This document shows positions 36,290 through 44,335 of a stretch of 44,961 nt of DNA, in pieces. The notes under the pieces are model-generated. The model ran no database searches. It worked only from the letters and a program-made list of their open reading frames with translations, and had not been told where the DNA came from. Source of the stretch: Dehalococcoidia bacterium (GTDB lineage Bacteria; Chloroflexota; Dehalococcoidia; CAUJGQ01). Where the stretch lies: assembly GCA_038325665.1 (NCBI GenBank), contig JBBQJF010000003.1, positions 1-44,961 of the forward strand, in the 5' to 3' direction. The position numbers and the translations under genes are program-made. Each line of letters starts with the position of its first letter. The stretch's first letter is position 1.

Positions 36290-37665
36290 ATGAAGCTCAT
36301 CGCAAGGCTGCTCGGTTGCTTCACCGCGGGCATGGCGGGACTATTCTTCGTCCGCATCACGTCGCCCCGTGCATCAATCCTGACCGCCCCGAAGCTGCTC
36401 GCCGCAGCGTTGTCTCGATATCTCATCGTGGCAAGCAGTGGCGCCGTCGTTCTCGGACTGGTCGTGCGGTCACGGCTCGCGGTTCTCACCGGAGTGGTTG
36501 GGGCGCTGGCGGCGACCCGCTACGTCCACCGCGTGACGGCCCCGCACGACGGATTCGCGCGAGCCTTCGGTCGGAATTGGGAGCGCGACCTATCACCAGA
36601 CCTCGCGCAACGGATGTTGCCCACCCGCGGAGGGTGGCGGCTGCCGTCAGTGCCGGACCCGCGCTGGGAGCGCGACGTACCATTTTGGACAATCCCCGGA
36701 ACCGACCGCCGCCTGCTCTGTGATCTCTGGCGGCCACCAGCCGTGGCGCCCCCACCGGCGTGGCGTTCATCTACCTACATGGCGGCGGCTGGCATTACCT
36801 CGACAAGGACTTCGGCACACGTCCCTGGTTCCGCCACCTCGCCGCGCAGGGGCATGTCGTGATGGATGTCGCCTATCGCCTCTGCCCCGAGGTCGATCTC
36901 GCTGGCATGGTAGGCGATGTGAAACGGGCGATCGCCTGGATGAAGTGCAATGCTGCCCGCCTTGGCGTCGACCCCGAACGGGTTGTGATCGCCGGCGGCT
37001 CGGGTGGCGGTCACCTTGCCCTGCTTGCCGCGTACACCCCGGGCCTGCCGGCATTGACCCCGGACGAACTCACGGGCGCTAACACCGGGGTGCGCGCGGT
37101 GGCGTCCTTTTACGGCACGGACGTGCGGGCCTACTATCATCACGCCGGTCGGGTGCAGGCGCGCGGCGCGCTCACACGGGTGAGTGACGATGAGGATGAG
37201 AACCGCTTCGCCAATCTGACAACCTGGATGACGCGCAAGGTGCTGCGCGCACCGCTCGGAAAGACATTCACGCACGACGAAATGATGCGGAACCTGATGG
37301 GTGGTTCTCCGGACGAGGCGCCGGCCACTTACGATCTCGCCTCACCGTTCACGTATGCCGGTCCGACCTGTCCACCGACCCTGCTGCTGCACGGGGAGCA
37401 CGACTGCTACATGCCGGTGGAATCTGCCCGGGATCTGGTGCGGCGGTTGACCGCCGCGGGCGTCCCGGCGCTGTGCGTCGAGTTTCCACAAACCGAGCAC
37501 GCCTTTGATGTGGCGTTGGGGCCGCTGTCCCAGCACTCACCGCCGGCTCGCGCGGCGATGTATGACGTCGACCGCTTCCTCGCGCTGATGGCGGTGCTAC
37601 CCGCCAACGCCGGACGCACCAGGCGAGCGGCTGAACCCCTGCACACCGGCCGAGCGCGTCGGTGA
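36290..37665 (+). pseudogene. Frameshifted membrane-anchored alpha/beta hydrolase (HSL/BD-FAE-like esterase)
   Basis: MKLIARLL...ERDVPFWTIPGTDRRLLCDLWRPP (GGAGG RBS, ATG 36290) joins AFIYLHGGGW..GGSGGG..LLLHGEHD..EHAFD in another frame at ~36750 (C5 run); may be a sequencing error. Confidence 0.8.
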
Positions 37666-37819
37666 CCCGACCGTCGTGCGTATCGCGGGCGACCTCGCCG
37701 CCAGAGTGTGCGACGTGCAAGTGGCGCCGTCCGACAGATACCTGACAATCCCACCTGATCACACGGCTCGTCCGCCGCGACCGACCGGCGGATGTTTACC
37801 CGCTCACACGGGAGAACAC

Positions 37820-38010
37820 CAAGGGGTAGCACGACGTGAAACGTGCTGCCACGTCCGGGAATGCTCTCGGTCCAGATGCGGTCGCCATGCCCCTCGACCA
37901 TCCCCCGGCAGATGAACGACCCGAGGGCGTTACCCCAAGAATTTTCGATCTCAACGTTCGTGCCGCGATGGAAACAGGTCGACAATATGCGGCAAATCGA
38001 CTGCCGCGAC
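37820..38010 (-). pseudogene. Degenerate histidine kinase HATPase_c C-terminal remnant
   Basis: DLPHIVDLF in one frame joins FHRGTNV...GNALGSFICRGMVEGHGDRIWTESIPGRGSTFHVVLPL in another; G2 box decayed, no N-terminus. Confidence 0.7.
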
Positions 38011-38148
38011 GAAGGACAGAACATAGACCAGCGATAGCCACGCCGGCAATGAGGGCGGCACGGCAGGCAGGCCGATCACCGCGGGCGCTAGACCGATCTC
38101 GGCCGCGCGCATCACCCAACACGTATCCTCCACACGGGAGGTCGGACG

Positions 38149-38457
38149 TTACGCCGGCTCGGCGCGCTCATACCAGGCGCCACGGCGATGAAGGAGGGTG
38201 AGCAGCCGCCCGTCGGCCAGTTCCACATGAAGCCGGCGACCGTCAAGGGTCAGTGCCATCGAGCGCGGATCGGGCGCGGGCGGCTCGTGCACGGCCACCA
38301 CGCGCAGTCGCCGTCCGTCGTACGTCACCCACCGCGGTGTCCCGGCCGGATAGGCCGCGACCGGGATCGGGTGCGCCCGCGGCGCCGCGCCACGGAAGGT
38401 TACTGACGCGGGGGACGGCGTATCCGCGACAGCGCGAACCGGTGCTGCAGTAACCAT
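38149..38457 (-). CDS. Small SOS-associated protein, DUF6504-like
   Basis: P.PV....GTPRWVTYDGRRLRVVAV...HVELADGRLLTLLHRRGAWY resembles the domain found at the end of, or next to, ImuB-type Y-polymerases; GAGGAGG RBS. Confidence 0.7.
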   Translation of the reverse strand: MVTAAPVRAVADTPSPASVTFRGAAPRAHPIPVAAYPAGTPRWVTYDGRRLRVVAVHEPPAPDPRSMALTLDGRRLHVELADGRLLTLLHRRGAWYERAEPA

Positions 38458-38518
38458 TGTACCCTCCTCGCCCGTCCCCGGTCGCACGTCCACCGCGCTC
38501 AACCACGTCAGGCATCAC

Positions 38519-38563
38519 AGAACTCTTGTTCTCTTATATAGAACACTCGTTCGGAGCTGTCAA
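38519..38563 (-). promoter_or_regulatory. Sigma70-type promoter overlapped by two LexA (SOS) boxes
   Basis: TTGACA(38563-38558)-N17-TATATA(38540-38535); AGAAC-TCTT-GTTCT at 38519-38532 and GAAC-ACTC-GTTC at 38541-38552. Confidence 0.85.
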
Positions 38564-38621
38564 GAGGCCGCCGCGGATCGGAGTTCCCGCGCGGCGCAAA
38601 AAACTCCTCCGCGAATGACAT

Positions 38622-38680
38622 CCAGACGTTGACGGCTCTATAGAACATATATTCTACTCAGTCACGAGGTCAACGTCTGG
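38622..38680 (+). promoter_or_regulatory. Rightward promoter region with LexA-like box inside a 12-bp inverted repeat
   Basis: TTGACG at 38629; TAGAAC-ATAT-ATTCTA at 38641-38656; arms CCAGACGTTGAC (38622-38633) and GTCAACGTCTGG (38669-38680). Confidence 0.7.
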
Positions 38681-38690
38681 GAGGAGGTCG

Positions 38691-38990
38691 ATGGAGAGCA
38701 CACCACTGTGGGAGGCCGTCATCGCGGCCGAGGCGGCAGTGACCACGGTTTGCGCCGCGCTGACCGCCGGGTTCTTTTTCAACACGCATCGCCAGGCGGT
38801 CAGCCCCGGCCGGCGCGCGGCGGCGCTCGCCCTGGTTCTAAGCGCGGCCGGCGCGGCCGCACAGATGGCGCTCGCCGCCGGGTGGCGGACGGCGTCGCCG
38901 GTCGTCGCCGGGGCGGGTCTCACCACCTGCGTCGGTCAAGCGCTGATAGCGCTGCTGGTGTTGCGACAGATCGGCAGAGGGCAGCAATAG
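38691..38990 (+). CDS. Small 3-TM hypothetical membrane protein
   Basis: GGAGGAGG RBS; three hydrophobic segments. Confidence 0.7.
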   Translation: MESTPLWEAVIAAEAAVTTVCAALTAGFFFNTHRQAVSPGRRAAALALVLSAAGAAAQMALAAGWRTASPVVAGAGLTTCVGQALIALLVLRQIGRGQQ

Positions 38991-39153
38991 GGGGGCGCCC
39001 CCGTGCAAGACACGCGGCGCCTCCCCCCACACGCAACACCCATCACCTGTTGCAAGGGAGTCGCTCATGCCCCTTCAGGGCGCCACCGGCCCATGAAAAC
39101 CGGCGGCGTCCTCATCACCCAACACCCAACACCCGCTTTCAAGGGAGGGCGAC

Positions 39154-39315
39154 ATGGTCGGGCTTCATGGGGCGATACGTCGCCGTGATTGGGATCTGAC
39201 GGCACTGTATCTGGCGCTGGCGGTGGTCCGGTCGGCGGCGCGGCTGCCCGAGGGCGCGGCCGCCGACCTGCTCGATCTGCTCGACAGCCGCCACCACGAA
39301 AGGCCGCGACGATGA
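39154..39315 (+). CDS. Small hypothetical protein (53 aa), coupled to the next gene
   Basis: Below ORF-track cutoff: MVGLHGAIRRRDWDLTALYLALAVVRSAARLPEGAAADLLDLLDSRHHERPRR*; GGAGG RBS; ATGA overlap with 39312. Confidence 0.7.
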   Translation: MVGLHGAIRRRDWDLTALYLALAVVRSAARLPEGAAADLLDLLDSRHHERPRR

Positions 39316-39647
39316 ACACATCGCGCAATCGCCAGCGGCGGCGCACGACGGCCCGTAATTTCTACCGCGGCGTGCTCGACGCCGCCGAGCAGGAACACCT
39401 TGAATCGGCGGCGGCCGCGGAAGGGTTGGACGACGAGGTCGCGCTGCTACGCGTGTTGCTGCGCCGCGAGATCGAGACGCACCCCGAGAATCTCCGTCTC
39501 GTGCTCCAGGGCATGACGCTGCTCGTGCGCGCCGTCGCCATACGCTACCGCCTCGCCCCTGCCGATCAGGACGCACTGCAGGCGCGGATCGTGGACGCGG
39601 TACAGGAGATTACCGAGACGGTAAGAAGGGGGGTCGAGCGTGGCTGA
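39312..39647 (+). CDS. Putative terminase small subunit-like helical protein
   Basis: Basic N-terminus, NFY...EGLDDEVALLRV helical pattern, small size, upstream of TerL. Confidence 0.55.
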   Translation: MNTSRNRQRRRTTARNFYRGVLDAAEQEHLESAAAAEGLDDEVALLRVLLRREIETHPENLRLVLQGMTLLVRAVAIRYRLAPADQDALQARIVDAVQEITETVRRGVERG

Positions 39648-39891
39648 CCATTGGCCCGAATCGCGATCGCGCACCCGACCCACCGCGATCGAGCGCGCCC
39701 TTGCCCGCCTCGTCGAGGCCGAGCGCCGCGCGGCGGCCGGCCGGGCGGAAGAGACAGCACGAGCCCTCAGTGATGAGCGGTTGCGTCGGATGGAACAGGA
39801 CCTGATCGAACTGCGCGGCCGGATCAATGGATTGATCTTTCTGGTCGCCGGCACGGTCATCACCCAGATTATCGTGCGGCTGCTCGCGTAA
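39640..39891 (+). CDS. Coiled-coil protein with C-terminal TM helix (holin/XhlA-like)
   Basis: ERLRRMEQDLIELRGRINGLIFLVAGTVITQIIVRLLA; overlaps the previous stop. Confidence 0.6.
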   Translation: MADHWPESRSRTRPTAIERALARLVEAERRAAAGRAEETARALSDERLRRMEQDLIELRGRINGLIFLVAGTVITQIIVRLLA

Positions 39892-39913
39892 CGCGCCGTC
39901 GAGGTTGACAACC

Positions 39914-41437
39914 ATGGGCCGCTTCCCTCAATTGCACCAGTACCAGGCGCTCGCTGTCGATGCGATCCAGCAGAGCGTGCGCCACGGCGATGGCCGCTCC
40001 TTTTCGGTGATGGTCAGCCGTCAGGGCGGCAAGAACGAGATGTCGGCGCAGCTCGAACTGCTCCTGCTCCTCGGCAACCTGGACCGCGAGGCGGATAGCG
40101 TGAAGTGCGCGCCAACATTTCACCCCCAGGGACGTGTCAGCCTGCGCCGGCTGTGGTCACGCGTCCAAGCGATCGGTATGGGAGCGCTGACCGGGCTGGA
40201 AAGCGGCAACACCATCCGCTGCGGGCGGGCACGTCAGTTCTTCCTCTCCGCCGAACCCGGCGCGAACGTGGTGGGCCACACGGTCCATCACTTACTCGAA
40301 GCCGATGAGGCGCAGGACATCGACGCCGATAAGTTCGACAAGGATTTCCGGCCGATGGCCGCCACTACCAACGCGACCACGGTCTACTATGGCACCGCCT
40401 GGACGGAGACGGACATGCTCGCCGAGGTGCGCCGCCGCCACCTGGAGATGGAGCGCCGCGACGGTGTGCGCCGCCACTTCGAGTTCGACTGGGAGACGGT
40501 CGCCCGCCACAATCCCGCGTACCGCTCGTTTGTCGACGCGGAGCGCGCCCGCCTGGGCGAGGATCACCCGCTGTTCATCACTCAGTATCTTCTGCGGCCC
40601 CTGACCGGCGGCGGCCGTCTACTCACCGCCGCCCACCGAGAATTACTCCGCGGAACCCACCCGCGCATCAGCGCCCCGCGCGACGCCGGGAACGGATCGG
40701 TGGGAGAGCCGGTGCTCGGCTACGTCGCCGGACTTGATGTTGGCGGCGAGGCGTTTGGTCCGGGCGATGCCCTCGGCGCTCACGCGGCGACCGTTGGGCG
40801 CGAGCGGGTGCGCTCCCACGACCGCACCGTGCTGACAATCGCCCGCCTGCTGGCGCCGCCGGCCGCGTCGTCCGTCCAGGAGCCGGTGATCGAGGTGGTC
40901 GAGCACGCGGCCTGGCAAGGCGCGTCACACGCCGACCTCGCGGGCGGACTGGTGCGACTGCTGCGCGAGATATGGCGGGTGCGCCGCGTGGTGATCGACG
41001 CCACCGGCATCGGCGAGGGACTCGCGGCCACCTTGGCCGCTGCCCGCCACGGCGGCGCCGTCTCTCGTGAATTGCCTACCGATGGAATGGGATTCACCGG
41101 CGGATTGAGCGCCGCTCCTCGCCGTGCCGCCGTCGGTTCGCTCGATGTGGTGCGGCTGCGACTGACCGAGGAACGCAAATCCGCGCTCGGCTATGGATTG
41201 CTCGCGGCGATCAACGGCGGCCGGCTACGTATCTACCGGCAGGACGGCTCGCCGGAGTACCGCGCTCTCTGGCATGAGATCGAGATGGCGCGGGCCGAGT
41301 ACCGGTCGAATCGCCGCCTCGCCTGGTTCGTCGACCCATCGGACGGTCACGACGACCACCTGATGAGCCTCGCTCTGGTGGTGGAGGCGGCGCGCGACCT
41401 ACGGTCCCGAACAGCGCGAGGACGGAACGGGGAATAG
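39914..41437 (+). CDS. Phage terminase large subunit-like protein
   Basis: LHQYQ (adenine-binding Q), SRQGGKNE (Walker A), LLEADEAQD (Walker B), YGTA (motif III); RNase H-like nuclease AGLDVGG, VIDATGIGE, GHDDHLMSLAL. Confidence 0.85.
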   Translation: MGRFPQLHQYQALAVDAIQQSVRHGDGRSFSVMVSRQGGKNEMSAQLELLLLLGNLDREADSVKCAPTFHPQGRVSLRRLWSRVQAIGMGALTGLESGNTIRCGRARQFFLSAEPGANVVGHTVHHLLEADEAQDIDADKFDKDFRPMAATTNATTVYYGTAWTETDMLAEVRRRHLEMERRDGVRRHFEFDWETVARHNPAYRSFVDAERARLGEDHPLFITQYLLRPLTGGGRLLTAAHRELLRGTHPRISAPRDAGNGSVGEPVLGYVAGLDVGGEAFGPGDALGAHAATVGRERVRSHDRTVLTIARLLAPPAASSVQEPVIEVVEHAAWQGASHADLAGGLVRLLREIWRVRRVVIDATGIGEGLAATLAAARHGGAVSRELPTDGMGFTGGLSAAPRRAAVGSLDVVRLRLTEERKSALGYGLLAAINGGRLRIYRQDGSPEYRALWHEIEMARAEYRSNRRLAWFVDPSDGHDDHLMSLALVVEAARDLRSRTARGRNGE

Positions 41438-41512
41438 GTCACGGGTCATGGGTCATAGGTCATGGGAGACGGGTCAGGGGTCACGGGTCATAGGAGATGA
41501 GGTATGGGAAAC
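41436..41512 (+). repeat. Degenerate heptamer tandem repeat (RGGTCAY-type, 11 units)
   Basis: aggtcac gggtcat gggtcat aggtcat gggagac gggtcag gggtcac gggtcat aggagat gaggtat gggaaac. Confidence 0.85.
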
Positions 41513-41554
41513 GGGTGTGACGCCGCGTGTGGTAGTCGCGGGAGGGGGTTGGTC

Positions 41555-41845
41555 ATGGGGGTCAAGGCACACCGCCACCAGCGCAAGCCCTGGGCCGATC
41601 GTCTCCCGGAGTTCACACACTACCGGGACGACGGCTGTGCAGTACACTCCGCCTGCCTAACGTGCCCGCTGCCCAGTTGTGTCTACGACGACCCGCGTCA
41701 AGGACGAGGCGCTGCTATCCGCCTACGCGACGCCGAGATTATGCAGCGCTTTCATGAGGGATGGAGTCCCGCGCGGCTGGCCAAGCACTTCGGCATCCAT
41801 CCCCGCAGTATCTTCCGCGTCCTGCGTCGCGCCCGCGAATCGTGA
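41555..41845 (+). CDS. Cys4 metal-binding + helix-turn-helix putative transcription regulator
   Basis: YRDDGCAVHSACLTCPLPSCVYDD, then RDAEIMQRFHEGWSPARLAKHFGIHPRSIFRVL (Mor-like HTH); GGAGG RBS. Confidence 0.78.
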   Translation: MGVKAHRHQRKPWADRLPEFTHYRDDGCAVHSACLTCPLPSCVYDDPRQGRGAAIRLRDAEIMQRFHEGWSPARLAKHFGIHPRSIFRVLRRARES

Positions 41846-42006: not shown

Positions 42007-42798
42007 CTACGTGCCCGCGAGCGGCGGCGGCGCGGACGGTGTGGCCGCGCCGCCGGTGGCGCGGACGACGATCACGGAGATGTTGTCGTGACCGCCGCGG
42101 GCAAGGGCGAGATCCACCAAGTTCTGAGCTGCCTGGTCCGCCGTATCGGTGACGGCGATCGCCTGGGCGAGATCACCGTCGCCGGCCGGCCCCCACAGTC
42201 CATCCGAGCACAGCAGGATCACATCGCCGGGGGCGAGCGGCAGCTCGCGCACCTCCGGCTCGGCGTCAGGCTCGGCGCCGAGCGCGCGGGTGAGCACGTT
42301 ACGGTATGGATGGTGGCGGGCCTCGTCCTCGCTCAGCCGCCCCTGGTCCATCCGCTCTTGTACCCATGAATGGTCGTTGGTCAGATGAAGCACCTGCGTG
42401 CCCCGGAACAGATACACGCGGGCATCACCCAGCCAGCCGACCGCGGCGCGGTCGCCGATCACCGCCACCGCCACAGCGGCAGCGCCCATACCTTGGCGGC
42501 CACCGTCGTGGGCGGCGGCGAGAATCGCGTCGTTGGCGGCGACCAATGCATCATGCAGCTTCGCCGCGGCGCCATTCCAGTCAGCCTGGAAGTACGTGCG
42601 CTGCACGGTTTCGAGCGTGATTTCGGCCGCGACATCGCCGGCCGCGTGGCCACCCATGCCGTCAGCAACCACGAATAGGTAGCCGCGCTCCGCGAGCAGC
42701 GGCGCCTCTTCCGGCACGAACGCGCCGCAGCGGTCCTCGTTGCGTTCGCGCACGTTACCGCGGTCCAGGAGCAAAGAGTAGTCTAGGAGCAATTCCAC
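42007..42798 (-). CDS. PP2C-family Ser/Thr protein phosphatase (Stp1/PrpC-like)
   Basis: RERNED, VVADGMGGH, GDARVY, DHS, RNVLTRALG, LCSDGL, GGHDNIS. Confidence 0.95.
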   Translation of the reverse strand: MELLLDYSLLLDRGNVRERNEDRCGAFVPEEAPLLAERGYLFVVADGMGGHAAGDVAAEITLETVQRTYFQADWNGAAAKLHDALVAANDAILAAAHDGGRQGMGAAAVAVAVIGDRAAVGWLGDARVYLFRGTQVLHLTNDHSWVQERMDQGRLSEDEARHHPYRNVLTRALGAEPDAEPEVRELPLAPGDVILLCSDGLWGPAGDGDLAQAIAVTDTADQAAQNLVDLALARGGHDNISVIVVRATGGAATPSAPPPLAGT

Positions 42799-43078
42799 CA
42801 GGCCTCCGCGGGAGAGTCAGCATCAGGCGATAGGCGCGGGCACGGGGCAGCTTGGCAGGCCGCGGGTCACTTGCTCTCAAGCATACACCGCGAGGTGCAT
42901 GAACCATAGTCGGTCATCGCGAACGCAAACGTAAACCGGCCACCCGTTCGACACAATGGCAGGGGGCTGACAGATCCCTGACACACCCGACGCTGCTGTT
43001 TGACGATCATCGGGCTTGCCCGTACCTTAAGTGCGGTCAACGCTGCCCGCGCTGCCGCGCGTGGTCACGGGATGGACA

Positions 43079-43729
43079 ATGGCAGATCCGATCCAAATGC
43101 TGATCGTGCGAGACTCGGCCGGTAGCGAGCGCATCATACCGCTCGACCGCGATGTGATCACCGTGGGCCGCGACCTTACATGCACGATCCGTCTTGATAG
43201 CCTGTACGTCTCGCGTCAACACGCCCGCATCGAAGTGCGCGAAACTGGCGCGGCGCTGATCGACCTGGGCAGCCGCAACGGTTCAGCGGTCAATGGCCGC
43301 CGGGTCGAGGGTGTGATCGAGTTGAATGCCGGCGATGTTGTCTCGATCGGCGACGCGACGATCGAATGCCTGTCCGAATCACCCGCTGACGGCGCCACGC
43401 GGACGTTTATCATCGAGCGACCCGAATCGGCCGCGGCCCCCGATGTCTTGCGGGTCGAAGGGCAGACACATGAAGTGTGGGTCGGCCCGGCTCAGCTTGA
43501 GCGACGCTTGTCAGCGCAGGAATTTGAGTTGGTGCGCTACCTGTACGACAACCGCGACCGGGTGTGCCAGCGCCAGGAACTGGGCGACGCCATCTGGGGG
43601 ACCGGCAACTGGGACCCGAACATGTTGCACCGGTTGGTCCACCGCCTCAAGGAGAAACTCGAACCAAGCCCCGAACGCACCCGCTACGTTCAGACGGTGC
43701 CGTGGGTCGGCTACCGCCTGACACCCTGA
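43079..43729 (+). CDS. FHA domain + OmpR-type winged-helix transcription regulator
   Basis: VGR..VSRQHA..DLGSRNG (FHA); LSAQEFEL..IWG..VHRLKEKLE..YVQTVPWVGYRL (Trans_reg_C). Confidence 0.92.
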   Translation: MADPIQMLIVRDSAGSERIIPLDRDVITVGRDLTCTIRLDSLYVSRQHARIEVRETGAALIDLGSRNGSAVNGRRVEGVIELNAGDVVSIGDATIECLSESPADGATRTFIIERPESAAAPDVLRVEGQTHEVWVGPAQLERRLSAQEFELVRYLYDNRDRVCQRQELGDAIWGTGNWDPNMLHRLVHRLKEKLEPSPERTRYVQTVPWVGYRLTP

Positions 43730-43864
43730 GCATACCCGCCACCGACCGATGCCCGCGCGAGAATCGTCGAGCGGCGCGCGTCACGTGTGCGAGCCAGTCT
43801 GGCAGGCGCCGGCGGGTGGAAGGGAAGCCGGCGGGGATAAGATATCTAGAAGGAGTACCGCACG

Positions 43865-44335
43865 ATGAAGGTTGAAGCGAAGCTCAAGGAGATGGGGCTG
43901 GAACTACCGCCCCAACCGAAACCGATGGGTACGTACGTGTCCGCGGTCCAGACTGGCAACCTCGTATTCGTCTCCGGTCACGGCCCGCGCGGCATAATCA
44001 CGCCAAAGTATCGCGGCAAGGTGGGACGCGACCTCACCACCGAGGAGGGCGCGCTGGTGGCGCGCGAGGTGATGCTGCATTGCCTGACCTCACTCAAGAC
44101 GCTGCTGGGTGATCTCGACCGCGTTCAGCGGGTGGTAAAGCTGCTAGGCATGGTCAATTGCACCGAGGACTTCTACGAGCAGCCGCGCGTGATCAACGGC
44201 GCCTCCGATCTGCTCGTCGAGCTGTACGGCGAGGCCGGCCGCCACGCCCGCTCCGCCGTGGGCATGCAGTCGCTGCCCGGTTCGGCCGAGGGCAGCATCG
44301 CCGTCGAGATCGAGATGATTGTCGAAGTGAATTGA
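43865..44335 (+). CDS. RidA/YjgF family protein
   Basis: YVSAVQTGNLVFVSGHGP, INGASDLL, GRHARSAVG, VEIEMIVE; AAGGAG RBS. Confidence 0.93.
   Translation: MKVEAKLKEMGLELPPQPKPMGTYVSAVQTGNLVFVSGHGPRGIITPKYRGKVGRDLTTEEGALVAREVMLHCLTSLKTLLGDLDRVQRVVKLLGMVNCTEDFYEQPRVINGASDLLVELYGEAGRHARSAVGMQSLPGSAEGSIAVEIEMIVEVN

What the first reader, a model, noticed from the sequence alone, without database searches (positions are those of the whole stretch)
38149..41845. LexA-controlled stand-alone terminase module: candidate domesticated DNA-packaging (GTA-like) system
Seen: downstream of SOS boxes lies a co-oriented, partly translationally coupled run of a 3-TM protein, a 53-aa ORF, a TerS-like protein, a holin-like protein, TerL with ATPase and nuclease motifs intact, and a Cys4-HTH regulator. 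It is followed directly by host signalling genes. There is no integrase, att site, phage repressor, replication, portal, capsid or tail gene, and the composition looks host-like. No frameshifts were seen, unlike the adjacent island. Established: prophage terL normally abuts the portal gene and is controlled by phage regulators; gene transfer agents are host-regulated and can be split over several loci. Inference: a host-domesticated, DNA-damage-inducible packaging or DNA-processing module whose structural genes lie elsewhere, or a terminase repurposed without a capsid.
Basis: partly seen in the sequence, partly recalled or inferred. Interest (0 to 1): 0.9.

Follow-up and report, generated by a model that had tools for sequence, protein, structure and literature searches.

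The report
SOS-controlled phage packaging operon, split from capsid genes
This is the DNA-packaging (terminase) operon of an old phage-derived capsid system that this bacterial family has inherited vertically, scattered over several chromosomal sites that each carry a DNA-damage (LexA) switch, which makes it a candidate gene-transfer-agent-like system rather than an ordinary dying prophage.

Summary
Three LexA-type boxes lie upstream of a co-oriented run: tm99, s53, a TerS-position protein, a tail-anchored 83-aa protein, TerL and a Cys4-HTH protein. Host signalling genes follow directly. TerL is a genuine large terminase by fold.

The module is not stand-alone. The same genome holds an intact portal and a scaffold-capsid-adaptor operon on other contigs. 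Each has host-like flanks and its own SOS box. The box type is validated upstream of recA, lexA, a dnaE2-like gene and a Y-family polymerase.

Within the bacterial family, 8 of 8 genomes carry TerL and portal. The TerL and RpoB trees have the same topology, flanks are syntenic within the genus, and dN/dS is 0.13-0.28. More distant relatives are contiguous phage-type clusters, many with an integrase.

Best reading, at about 0.5: a vertically inherited, LexA-repressed, multi-locus phage-derived packaging and capsid system, GTA-like.

Against it: no tail genes were found in this genus, the portal is broken in two relatives, and no expression or particle data exist.

The parts
38149..38502 (-). 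Divergent small gene 'div117' of unknown function. The longest ORF is 117 aa; the assembly's own gene call is 102 aa.
   Evidence: ORF. No Pfam, PHROG or PADLOC hit. 29 homologues, all called hypothetical; several lie on the same contigs as TerL homologues, judged by equal contig lengths. It lies next to the cassette in G001 and G002.
38520..38552 (.). Two perfect LexA-type boxes (GAACN4GTTC) at 38520-38531 and 38541-38552.
   Evidence: The same motif lies upstream of recA, lexA, a dnaE2-like gene and an IMS-family polymerase in this genome.
38643..38654 (.). Third LexA-like box with one mismatch (GAACATATATTC), 37 nt upstream of the tm99 start. A TTGACG hexamer lies 8 nt upstream of it.
   Evidence: The promoter scan found only one minus-strand promoter-like site, at 38673-38644, and it overlaps this box.
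38691..38990 (+). tm99: a 99-aa protein with three moderately hydrophobic segments. It is lineage-specific.
   Evidence: A homologue was found only in G005. No family hit.
39154..39315 (+). s53: a 53-aa ORF whose stop overlaps the next start (ATGA).
   Evidence: Homologues lie upstream of the TerS-position gene in G032, G017, G026 and G005.
39312..39647 (+). TerS-position protein of 111 aa, with a basic N-terminus and helical structure. Assigned as small terminase by position only.
   Evidence: It lies directly upstream of TerL in 51 of 55 related loci. Alignment A3. AlphaFold model with pLDDT 72, all-helical. No PDB match at E<=0.001.
39640..39891 (+). h83: an 83-aa protein with a coiled-coil-like N-terminus and a single C-terminal hydrophobic anchor.
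   Evidence: Conserved between the TerS-position gene and TerL in relatives. No family hit.
39905..41437 (+). Large terminase (TerL), 510 aa, with an ATPase domain and an RNase H-like nuclease domain.
   Evidence: Pfam Terminase_6C at 6e-6. phrog_7579. Of the 20 Foldseek PDB hits at E<=0.001, 18 are listed and all 18 are large terminases; HK97 scores 5.5e-11 and the G20c nuclease has TMt 0.71. The motif columns are invariant in 25 of 25 aligned sequences.
41504..41845 (+). Cys4 (C-x5-C-x2-C-x4-C) plus HTH protein. It resembles a Mor/late-activator type regulator, or it may be a DNA-recognition subunit.
   Evidence: Pfam HTH_23 at 8.5e-7, with weak Mor and Terminase_5 hits. phrog_836 'late transcriptional activator' at 1.6e-4. 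All four Cys columns are Cys in each of the 22 aligned rows. In relatives it lies between TerL and the portal.
42007..44335 (.). Host flank: PP2C phosphatase (42007-42798, -), FHA/OmpR-type regulator (43031-43729, +) and a RidA-like gene (43865-44335, +). This marks the end of the phage-derived segment.
   Evidence: Pfam. The same three genes follow the cassette in same-genus genome G001, at 60-72% identity.

Best explanation
The window carries the packaging-enzyme operon of a phage-derived head system: tm99, s53, the TerS-position protein, h83, TerL and Cys4-HTH. A small divergent gene sits beside it. The bacterial family containing this genome has inherited the system vertically. The system descends from a family of small (about 16-18 kb) temperate podovirus-like elements. 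In this family it has lost its integrase and is dispersed over at least three chromosomal loci:
1. the terminase cassette;
2. the portal;
3. the scaffold-capsid-adaptor operon.
Each locus sits behind its own LexA operator.

Proposed mechanism (inferred, not shown). LexA represses all three loci. DNA damage leads to RecA-stimulated LexA cleavage and co-induction. Scaffold, capsid and portal build procapsids, and the terminase fills them with DNA. The loci are separated by host genes, so the particle cannot carry its own full gene set. Any packaged DNA would therefore be mostly chromosomal, which is the defining behaviour of a gene transfer agent. In this genus the particles would lack tails unless tail genes exist in a form I could not recognise.

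Shown here: the gene identities, the dispersal with host flanks, the SOS boxes, vertical inheritance and purifying selection. Inferred: LexA binding, induction, particle assembly and the nature of the packaged DNA.
For: Gene identity
- TerL fold and motifs.

Structural genes elsewhere in G000
- An intact 530-aa portal on C443 (PHROG portal 1.6e-28).
- Scaffold, a 296-aa major head protein (phrog_212, 1.4e-70), a 162-aa ORF and an adaptor on C369+C594.
- C594 and C369 overlap by 28 nt with one mismatch.
- The flanks are host-like: an alpha/beta hydrolase and a CMD-family gene around the capsid operon.

SOS boxes
- Perfect AT-rich boxes lie 102 nt upstream of the portal (C443:833) and just upstream of the scaffold gene (C369:2862).
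- The same motif precedes recA, lexA, a PHP/PolIII-alpha (dnaE2-like) gene and an IMS polymerase.
- Upstream of the cassette, the box is perfect in 5 of 8 family genomes and has one mismatch in 3 of 8.
- Upstream of the portal it is perfect and AT-rich in 5 of 8.
- Upstream of the scaffold it is perfect in G000, G002 and G005 and has one mismatch in G003.

Distribution in the family
- TerL in 8 of 8 genomes, portal in 8 of 8, capsid in 7 of 8.

Vertical inheritance
- The TerL tree and the RpoB tree have the same topology within the family.
- Patristic distances correlate at rho 0.85 over 28 pairs.
- The order div117-cassette-PP2C-FHA-RidA is syntenic between G000 and G001.
- The capsid operon ends at the same CMD gene in G000 and G001.

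Selection (NG86 dN/dS)
- TerL 0.16-0.28, capsid 0.18-0.27, portal 0.13-0.27.
- These values are at or below those of the flanking host genes, 0.30-0.35.

No sign of an autonomous element
- No integrase profile hit on C3 or in 37 kb around the G004 loci.
- Host genes (GDT1, a cadherin-like protein, MauE/thioredoxin) separate the cassette from the portal in G004.
- No other terminase family (PF03354, PF03237) and no HK97 capsid family (PF05065) was found in G000.
Against: - No tail-type genes (c5 BNR-like protein, c7, c10-c12, lectin) were found in G000 with profiles. The c5 profile (alignment A2) was found in 0 of 4 genomes of genera g1 and g4, against 4 of 4 in g2 and g3. The adaptor is followed directly by a convergent host gene. 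No lysis genes were identified.
- The portal is broken in two relatives. In G001, residues 1-238 and 221-508 lie about 30.6 kb apart. In G005, residues 1-60 remain beside the Cys4-HTH gene and residues 56-507 lie on another contig.
- In G000 a toxin-antitoxin-like pair (UPF0175/DUF3368) and a duplicated portal 3' fragment follow the portal.
- The genome is a metagenome bin of 633 contigs, 91.7% complete with 6.3% contamination. Portal and capsid lie on 4-5-kb contigs, so their linkage and their membership of the same strain are not proven.
- Outside the family, TerL does not track RpoB significantly (rho 0.28; 244 of 2000 permutations reach it).
- 27 integrase-family ORFs lie in 26 of the 55 related loci clustered, so mobility is the ancestral state.
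- dS is near saturation for most pairs.
- No RNA data exist.
Confidence: 0.5

Rival explanations
1. Dispersed remnants of an old prophage that no longer make particles. A LexA-controlled late operon may have been a feature of the ancestral phage lineage. Single genes stay intact through some other benefit, for example interference with packaging by related phages, or simply by slow decay.
For: The portal is broken in G001 and G005. Tail genes were not found in genera g1 and g4. A TA-like pair and duplicated portal 3' fragments sit at the G000 portal locus. TerL is frameshifted in G013. Relatives elsewhere are contiguous phage-type clusters, and 27 integrase-family ORFs lie in 26 of the 55 loci clustered. 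LexA-like boxes, partly degenerate, also precede the cassette in distant chromosomal copies.
Against: All three loci keep intact ORFs in G000. dN/dS is 0.13-0.28, at or below the neighbouring host genes, at dS of about 0.7-1.2. Topology is identical to RpoB across four genera. SOS boxes are retained at each separated operon after rearrangement. No PADLOC defence family was hit.
Confidence: 0.3
2. Terminase repurposed without a capsid: an SOS-induced ATPase-nuclease, with its small partners, that processes DNA in the cell independently of portal and capsid.
For: TerL remains intact in G001 and G005 although their portals are broken. In the closed genome G027, four diverged copies of TerS-position gene plus TerL (about 78-83% nt identity over about 2.2 kb) exist, and only one has Cys4-HTH and portal beside it. 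G010 has TerL without a detectable TerS-position gene or portal nearby.
Against: Portal and capsid co-occur in the family: portal in 8 of 8 and capsid in 7 of 8 genomes. In the three pairs compared they are as constrained as TerL, and they carry the same operator type. No precedent is known to me (recall), and no defence-family hit was found.
Confidence: 0.1
3. Satellite-like, capsid-forming element (cf-PICI-like) that makes its own heads and borrows the tails of a helper phage.
For: The gene content in this genus is head-only: TerS-position gene, TerL, portal, scaffold, capsid and adaptor, with no tail genes. That matches the repertoire described for cf-PICIs (abstract of 10.1101/2025.02.11.637232, seen in the listing; details recalled).
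Against: There is no integrase, replication or excision module. The genes are dispersed among host genes, so the element cannot be packaged as a unit. No other terminase or HK97 capsid family that might mark a helper prophage was found in G000.
Confidence: 0.07
4. Part of an intact, inducible prophage whose remaining genes are merely on unassembled or neighbouring contigs.
For: The assembly is fragmented into 633 contigs, and the phage-like genes sit on short contigs.
Against: Host genes directly flank the cassette on both sides within one 45-kb contig, and they flank the capsid operon on both sides. The same flanks occur in G001. No integrase lies nearby.
Confidence: 0.03

Closest known systems
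Gene transfer agents of the RcGTA type (Rhodobacter capsulatus, Caulobacter)
   Same: Both are phage-derived head genes inherited vertically. Both are encoded at several loci, so the particle cannot carry its own gene set, and both are under host regulation with a link to DNA damage and repair. Sources, from the search listings: abstracts of PMC5026251, PMC5721377 and PMC9632790. The involvement of LexA in RcGTA control is recalled.
   Different: The lineage is different: Chloroflexota-type relatives, a podovirus-like ancestor with an SPP1-type portal, a phrog_212 capsid and an SU10-type adaptor. SOS boxes lie directly at each structural operon instead of a CtrA/GafA cascade. No tail genes were found in this genus. 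Packaging of host DNA has not been shown.
Small temperate podovirus-like elements in IMG/VR that carry the same TerL family
   Same: The order is the same: TerS-position gene, TerL, (Cys4-HTH), portal, scaffold, capsid, adaptor. TerL identity is 40-54%.
   Different: Those elements are contiguous. A tyrosine-integrase-family ORF lies in 26 of the 55 loci clustered, and many carry the c5 and lectin tail-type genes, some an HNH gene. A LexA-like box with at most one mismatch lies upstream of the TerS-position gene in only 13 of 50 loci scanned, and most of those 13 are chromosomal copies. The window's system has none of the mobility genes and is split among host genes.
Capsid-forming PICIs (cf-PICIs)
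   Same: A head-only morphogenesis set with its own terminase and no tail genes (family description from the abstract in the listing and from recall).
   Different: cf-PICIs are contiguous, excisable islands with integrase and replication genes. Here there is no integrase, and the loci are dispersed and vertically inherited.
SOS-inducible defective prophages such as PBSX (recalled, not searched)
   Same: Damage-inducible, non-propagating phage-like particle genes kept by the host.
   Different: PBSX is one contiguous cluster with tail and lysis genes and its own repressor. Here the operons are separated, LexA boxes sit directly at the structural operons, and no tail genes were found.

Membership tests
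Large terminase (TerL) | N-terminal ASCE ATPase with Walker A and Walker B motifs | tested here: met
   R39-Q40-x-G42-K43-N44 and L130-L131-E132-x-D134-E135 are invariant in 25 of 25 aligned sequences, the window's included. Reading these as Walker A and B is by recall. The ATPase part of the model has low confidence, but it still matches the P74-26 and T4 ATPase domains.
Large terminase (TerL) | C-terminal RNase H-like nuclease domain | tested here: met
   Pfam Terminase_6C at 6.1e-6, above its cut-off. pLDDT is about 85-94 over much of the nuclease domain (blocks 311-380, 411-460 and 481-500; lower at 381-410 and 461-480), and the model matches the G20c nuclease with TMt 0.71. D278, D365 and D483-D484 are invariant.
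Large terminase (TerL) | Overall fold like solved large terminases | tested here: met
   20 Foldseek PDB hits have E<=0.001; the 18 listed are all large terminases or their domains, with HK97 best at 5.5e-11. A sequence profile against PDB found nothing at E<=0.01.
Small terminase (TerS) | Recognisable TerS family or fold (oligomeric DNA-binding subunit) | tested here: inconclusive
   No Pfam, PHROG or PADLOC hit. The helical model (pLDDT 72) has no PDB match at E<=0.001. The only support is its position directly upstream of TerL in 51 of 55 loci.
Holin | Small membrane protein of a lysis cassette, with an adjacent endolysin | tested here: not met
   h83 has a single C-terminal hydrophobic segment. 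It lies between the TerS-position gene and TerL and is conserved there. No lysis gene is nearby.
LexA (SOS) regulon member | Operator of the organism's own LexA type in the promoter region | tested here: met
   GAACN4GTTC in AT-rich context precedes lexA, recA, a dnaE2-like gene and an IMS polymerase in G000. The same motif precedes the cassette, the portal and the scaffold-capsid operon.
LexA (SOS) regulon member | LexA binding and induction by DNA damage | not testable with these tools
   No RNA run holds the stretch. No binding data exist.
Gene transfer agent | Phage-derived structural genes that cannot transmit themselves (no integrase or replication genes; loci dispersed beyond one capsid load) | tested here: inconclusive
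   No integrase lies near the loci, and host genes flank each locus. True distances between the loci in G000 are unknown because the assembly is fragmented.
Gene transfer agent | Vertical inheritance with purifying selection in a host clade | tested here: met
   Met within the family only: identical TerL and RpoB topology, synteny, and dN/dS of 0.13-0.28. Not met across the class.
Gene transfer agent | Complete particle gene set, including delivery (tail) and release (lysis) functions | tested here: not met
   No tail-type profiles hit G000, and the c5 profile hit no genome of genera g1 or g4. No lysis genes were identified. The G000 assembly is 91.7% complete, so absence is not proven.
Gene transfer agent | Particles that package random host DNA and transfer it | not testable with these tools
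   Needs culture, induction, electron microscopy and sequencing of protected DNA.
Intact temperate prophage | One contiguous element with integrase, att sites, lysogeny and replication modules, and a portal next to TerL | tested here: not met
   Host genes follow the Cys4-HTH gene directly. There is no integrase profile hit on the contig. Portal and capsid lie on other contigs with host flanks.
cf-PICI satellite | Excisable island with integrase and replication genes plus head genes | tested here: not met
   Head-only gene content is met. Integrase and contiguity are not.

The most novel reading that the evidence does not exclude
A previously undescribed class of gene-transfer-agent-like system in Chloroflexota. 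It would be a domesticated small podovirus whose terminase, portal and capsid operons are scattered in the chromosome, each wired directly to LexA. DNA damage would then trigger packaging of chromosomal DNA into capsids, tailless in this genus, for release to kin. That would tie a GTA-type system directly to the SOS response.
Probability: 0.3. Interest if true: 0.85.

Novelty: new variant of a known kind. Interest (0 to 1): 0.7.

Why it matters
Gene transfer agents are known from very few lineages, and their regulation is mostly indirect. A vertically inherited phage head system in Chloroflexota would extend the phenomenon to a new phylum. It would also extend it to a new viral ancestor. Every dispersed operon here carries its own SOS operator, which gives a simple, testable regulatory logic: DNA damage leads to packaging. 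It would also offer a case in which the steps of domestication can be compared between genera of one family: loss of the integrase, scattering of the operons, retention of the operators, and loss of the tail. Full-text searches found no paper describing such a system. The searches were 'gene transfer agent' + Chloroflexi; LexA + terminase + portal + SOS box + domesticated; Dehalococcoides + LexA + SOS box; and LexA + Chloroflexi + binding motif + regulon. I read only listings and the starts of abstracts, and supplements were not available.

Tried and rejected
Dead ends and negatives
- Cultured-phage records (INPHARED, tblastn) gave only remote hits: 36% identity over 42% of TerL in Bacillus phage vB_BboS-125 and 26% in BCD7. 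Four records in all, representing two phages.
- A single-protein scan of IMG/VR found nothing. The alignment-based scan did find relatives.
- A TerL profile against PDB sequences gave 0 hits.
- The fold search with the TerS-position protein gave 0 hits at E<=0.001.
- PADLOC gave 0 hits for all 7 cassette proteins.
- The look-up of sequencing runs listed no RNA holder.
- The promoter scan gave one minus-strand site and no plus-strand site, so promoter positions stay open.
- NCBIfam was never searched. The only attempt failed on a coordinate slip and I did not repeat it.
- Supplementary files of papers were not opened. They could hold prophage or GTA surveys that bear on novelty.

Considered and rejected
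- Active prophage: rejected on the host flanks.
- Holin identity of h83: rejected.
- An ancient class-wide host gene: rejected, because the Mantel test outside the family was not significant.

Rows left out
- G013 TerL (frameshifted) was left out of the TerL tree.
- G017 has no RpoB match, so it is absent from the RpoB tree.
- For the distance comparison, one copy each of G027 (copy c) and G008 (copy a) was used.
- Only the 41 IMG/VR loci of at least 10 kb, out of the 80 kept, were clustered.
- Gene calls in related loci come from my own GC3-based caller and are approximate.

Full report
**What is in the window**

The window is the whole of contig C3 of a 633-contig metagenome-type assembly of 5.51 Mb, 91.7% complete with 6.3% contamination.

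- a 188-nt intergenic region;
- then, on the plus strand, tm99, s53, a 111-aa protein, h83, TerL and a 113-aa Cys4-HTH protein.

s53 and the 111-aa protein overlap as ATGA. The 111-aa protein and h83 overlap by 8 nt. TerL starts 13 nt after h83.

The intergenic region holds two perfect GAACN4GTTC boxes (38520, 38541) and one box with a single mismatch (38643). Downstream come a PP2C phosphatase on the other strand, an FHA/OmpR-type regulator and a RidA-like gene. Base composition is flat across the region.

**Gene identities**

TerL scores above the Pfam cut-off for the terminase RNase H-like domain and matches a PHROG large-terminase family. An AlphaFold model was built on 25 homologues. Its nuclease part is confident and its ATPase part is weak. 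Of its 20 Foldseek PDB hits at E<=0.001, the 18 listed are all large terminases or their domains. The Walker-type and acidic nuclease columns are invariant in the alignment.

The Cys4-HTH protein has an HTH_23 domain, with weak Mor-type and late-activator hits. All four cysteine columns are Cys in each of the 22 aligned rows.

The 111-aa protein is called TerS-like only because it precedes TerL in 51 of 55 related loci. Its helical model matches no solved structure.

h83 has one C-terminal hydrophobic anchor and is conserved between the TerS-position gene and TerL. It does not look like a holin.

The divergent gene has 29 homologues, all hypothetical. Several lie on contigs that also carry TerL homologues, judged by equal contig lengths.

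**The boxes are this organism's SOS operators**

The genome has 122 perfect boxes. Of these, 29 lie in AT-rich context, and about 13 of the 29 are intergenic by my gene calls. Among the intergenic ones are boxes upstream of lexA itself, recA, a PHP/PolIII-alpha (dnaE2-like) gene and an IMS-family polymerase.

That Chloroflexi-type LexA uses the Gram-positive-type box is something I recall from the literature. My paper searches did not retrieve it.

**The module is not alone**

In 6 of 10 distant related loci an SPP1-type portal gene directly follows the Cys4-HTH gene. In one of them (G032) a scaffold, a phrog_212 major head protein, an SU10-type adaptor and a 656-aa protein follow.

In the window's own genome the homologues exist but lie elsewhere.

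*Portal locus, contig C443.* The portal is intact at 530 aa. A perfect box lies 102 nt upstream. The portal is followed by a UPF0175/DUF3368 pair and a duplicated portal 3' fragment.

*Capsid locus, contigs C369 and C594.* It holds a scaffold, a 296-aa capsid, a 162-aa ORF and an adaptor. The two contigs overlap by 28 nt with one mismatch. A perfect box lies just upstream of the scaffold gene. The flanks are host-like: an alpha/beta hydrolase and a CMD-family gene.

Sources for both loci.

No second terminase (PF03354, PF03237) and no HK97-type capsid family (PF05065) was found in the assembly.

**Vertical inheritance in the family**

TerL relatives occur in 31 of 41 class-level genomes searched, and in 19 of 26 high-quality ones. 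They are mostly single-copy, but G027 has four full copies and G008 three. In the window's family, 8 of 8 genomes have TerL, 8 of 8 a portal and 7 of 8 the capsid (not found in G007).

The TerL tree has 33 rows, with G013 left out because its gene is frameshifted. The RpoB tree has 25 rows. The two trees give the same topology for the eight family genomes. Patristic distances correlate at rho 0.85 within the family. Outside it the correlation is only 0.28, and 244 of 2000 permutations reach that value.

G000 and G001 share the order div117-cassette-PP2C-FHA-RidA. They also share the host gene that ends the capsid operon. Genera g2 and g3 share other flanks of the cassette.

dN/dS (NG86) is 0.16-0.28 for TerL, 0.18-0.27 for the capsid and 0.13-0.27 for the portal. 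The three flanking host genes give 0.30-0.35. dS is near saturation for most pairs, so the ratios are rough.

**The operators travel with the pieces**

- *Cassette.* Perfect boxes precede it in G000, G001, G002, G003 and G006. One-mismatch boxes precede it in G004, G007 and G005.
- *Portal.* Perfect AT-rich boxes precede it in G000, G001, G004, G007 and G006.
- *Scaffold-capsid operon.* Where it is separate it has its own box: G000, G002 and G005 perfect, G003 with one mismatch.
- *G004.* The cassette and the portal-to-tail module are divergent and are separated by 5 kb of host-type genes: GDT1, a cadherin-like protein and MauE/thioredoxin. No integrase profile hit lies in the 37 kb examined.

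**Where it came from**

An alignment-based scan of IMG/VR found 248 viral contigs with TerL relatives at 40-54% identity. I clustered 55 loci: 41 viral loci of at least 10 kb and 14 genomic loci.

Their common order is integrase, small genes, TerS-position gene, TerL, (Cys4-HTH), portal, scaffold, capsid, adaptor, small genes, the c5 protein of about 614 aa, and a lectin-domain protein. Two contigs of 17-18 kb carry c5 at both ends, which suggests genomes of about that size.

LexA-like boxes upstream of the TerS-position gene are uncommon in this set. They occur in 13 of 50 loci at one mismatch or fewer, and most of those are chromosomal copies. Cultured phages offer only remote relatives.

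The ancestor was therefore a small mobile temperate phage. The family's version has lost mobility.

**What speaks against a working particle system**

- Profiles of the tail-type genes hit nothing in G000.
- The c5 protein was found in only 4 of 8 family genomes, those of genera g2 and g3.
- In g1 and g4 the adaptor is the last gene before convergent host genes.
- No lysis genes were recognised.
- The portal is split in G001 (residues 1-238 and 221-508, about 30.6 kb apart). In G005, residues 1-60 lie beside the Cys4-HTH gene and the rest lies on another contig.
- In G027, three of four copies of the TerS-position gene plus TerL stand without a portal. This keeps open a capsid-independent role.
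- No RNA run holds the locus.
- The portal and capsid contigs of G000 are short, and the bin is not clean. Their closest relatives are nevertheless the same-genus genomes, at 74-90% identity.

**Verdict**

The supported points are that the module is host-retained, carries SOS boxes, and has its structural genes elsewhere.

The most likely reading (about 0.5) is a vertically inherited, LexA-repressed, multi-locus phage-derived packaging and capsid system of the GTA kind.

The rivals are:
- dispersed prophage remnants kept for another reason (about 0.3);
- a repurposed terminase (about 0.1);
- a tail-borrowing satellite-like system (about 0.07);
- an intact prophage (about 0.03).

Noticed in passing
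G000:C443 3469-3603 (L034) and G000:C441 3594-3776 (L045); G001:C166 2479-3207 and 33798-34490 (L050, L051): The 3' end of the portal gene seems to be an insertion hotspot. G000 has the full portal plus two extra copies of its last 45-61 codons, one of them after an inserted UPF0175/DUF3368 pair. In G001 the portal is split by about 30.6 kb, and the two halves overlap by 18 residues.
   Followed up: partly
G027:C1, loci L013-L016 (about 9.2-11.9 kb in each locus): One closed genome has four diverged copies of the TerS-position gene plus TerL, at 78-83% nt identity over about 2.2 kb. Only one copy has Cys4-HTH and portal beside it. The 160-280 nt upstream of them is more conserved (88%) than the coding part and contains a TTGACT-N18-TATATT promoter-like site abutting a degenerate LexA half-site.
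   Followed up: partly
G000:C29:22156, G000:C505:2933, G000:C145:11135, G000:C409 2132-2458: Further AT-rich SOS-type boxes lie upstream of a XerC/D-like tyrosine recombinase and of an HTH_23 protein. Two paralogues of the Cys4-HTH protein lie on other contigs, and one of them has a box at its start.
   Followed up: partly
G000:C7:13545 (L094 about 2046): This box has flanks almost identical to those of the portal's box (ATAAGAAC....GTTCTGAT). It lies upstream of a 143-aa ORF with no Pfam or PHROG hit, about 3.5 kb from lexA. It could be a further member of the system or of the SOS regulon.
   Followed up: partly
IMG/VR loci L158 and L181: These contigs of 17-18 kb carry the c5 gene at both ends. 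That suggests circularly permuted or complete genomes of about 16-17 kb for the mobile relatives, which have an integrase and no obvious replication module.
   Followed up: no
G013:C1:1938280-1939642 (L083): TerL of this relative is spread over three reading frames, so it is probably a pseudogene. This shows that decay does occur in some lineages.
   Followed up: no
window 37407-38024 (-): The ORF next to the divergent gene ends in a sequence that looks like the C-terminal ATPase part of a histidine kinase. Its N-terminal two thirds are arginine-rich and look out of frame. It may be a frameshifted kinase gene. This was seen only in the translation and was not searched.
   Followed up: no
alignment A2 (c5 proteins; e.g. 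L022:18130-19998, L194:3716-5839): The consensus of the c5 tail-type protein (about 590-720 aa in the aligned set) contains motifs of the form S-x-D-x-G-x-T-W. I recall these as BNR/Asp-box repeats of beta-propeller glycosidases. No Pfam or PHROG family was hit.
   Followed up: no
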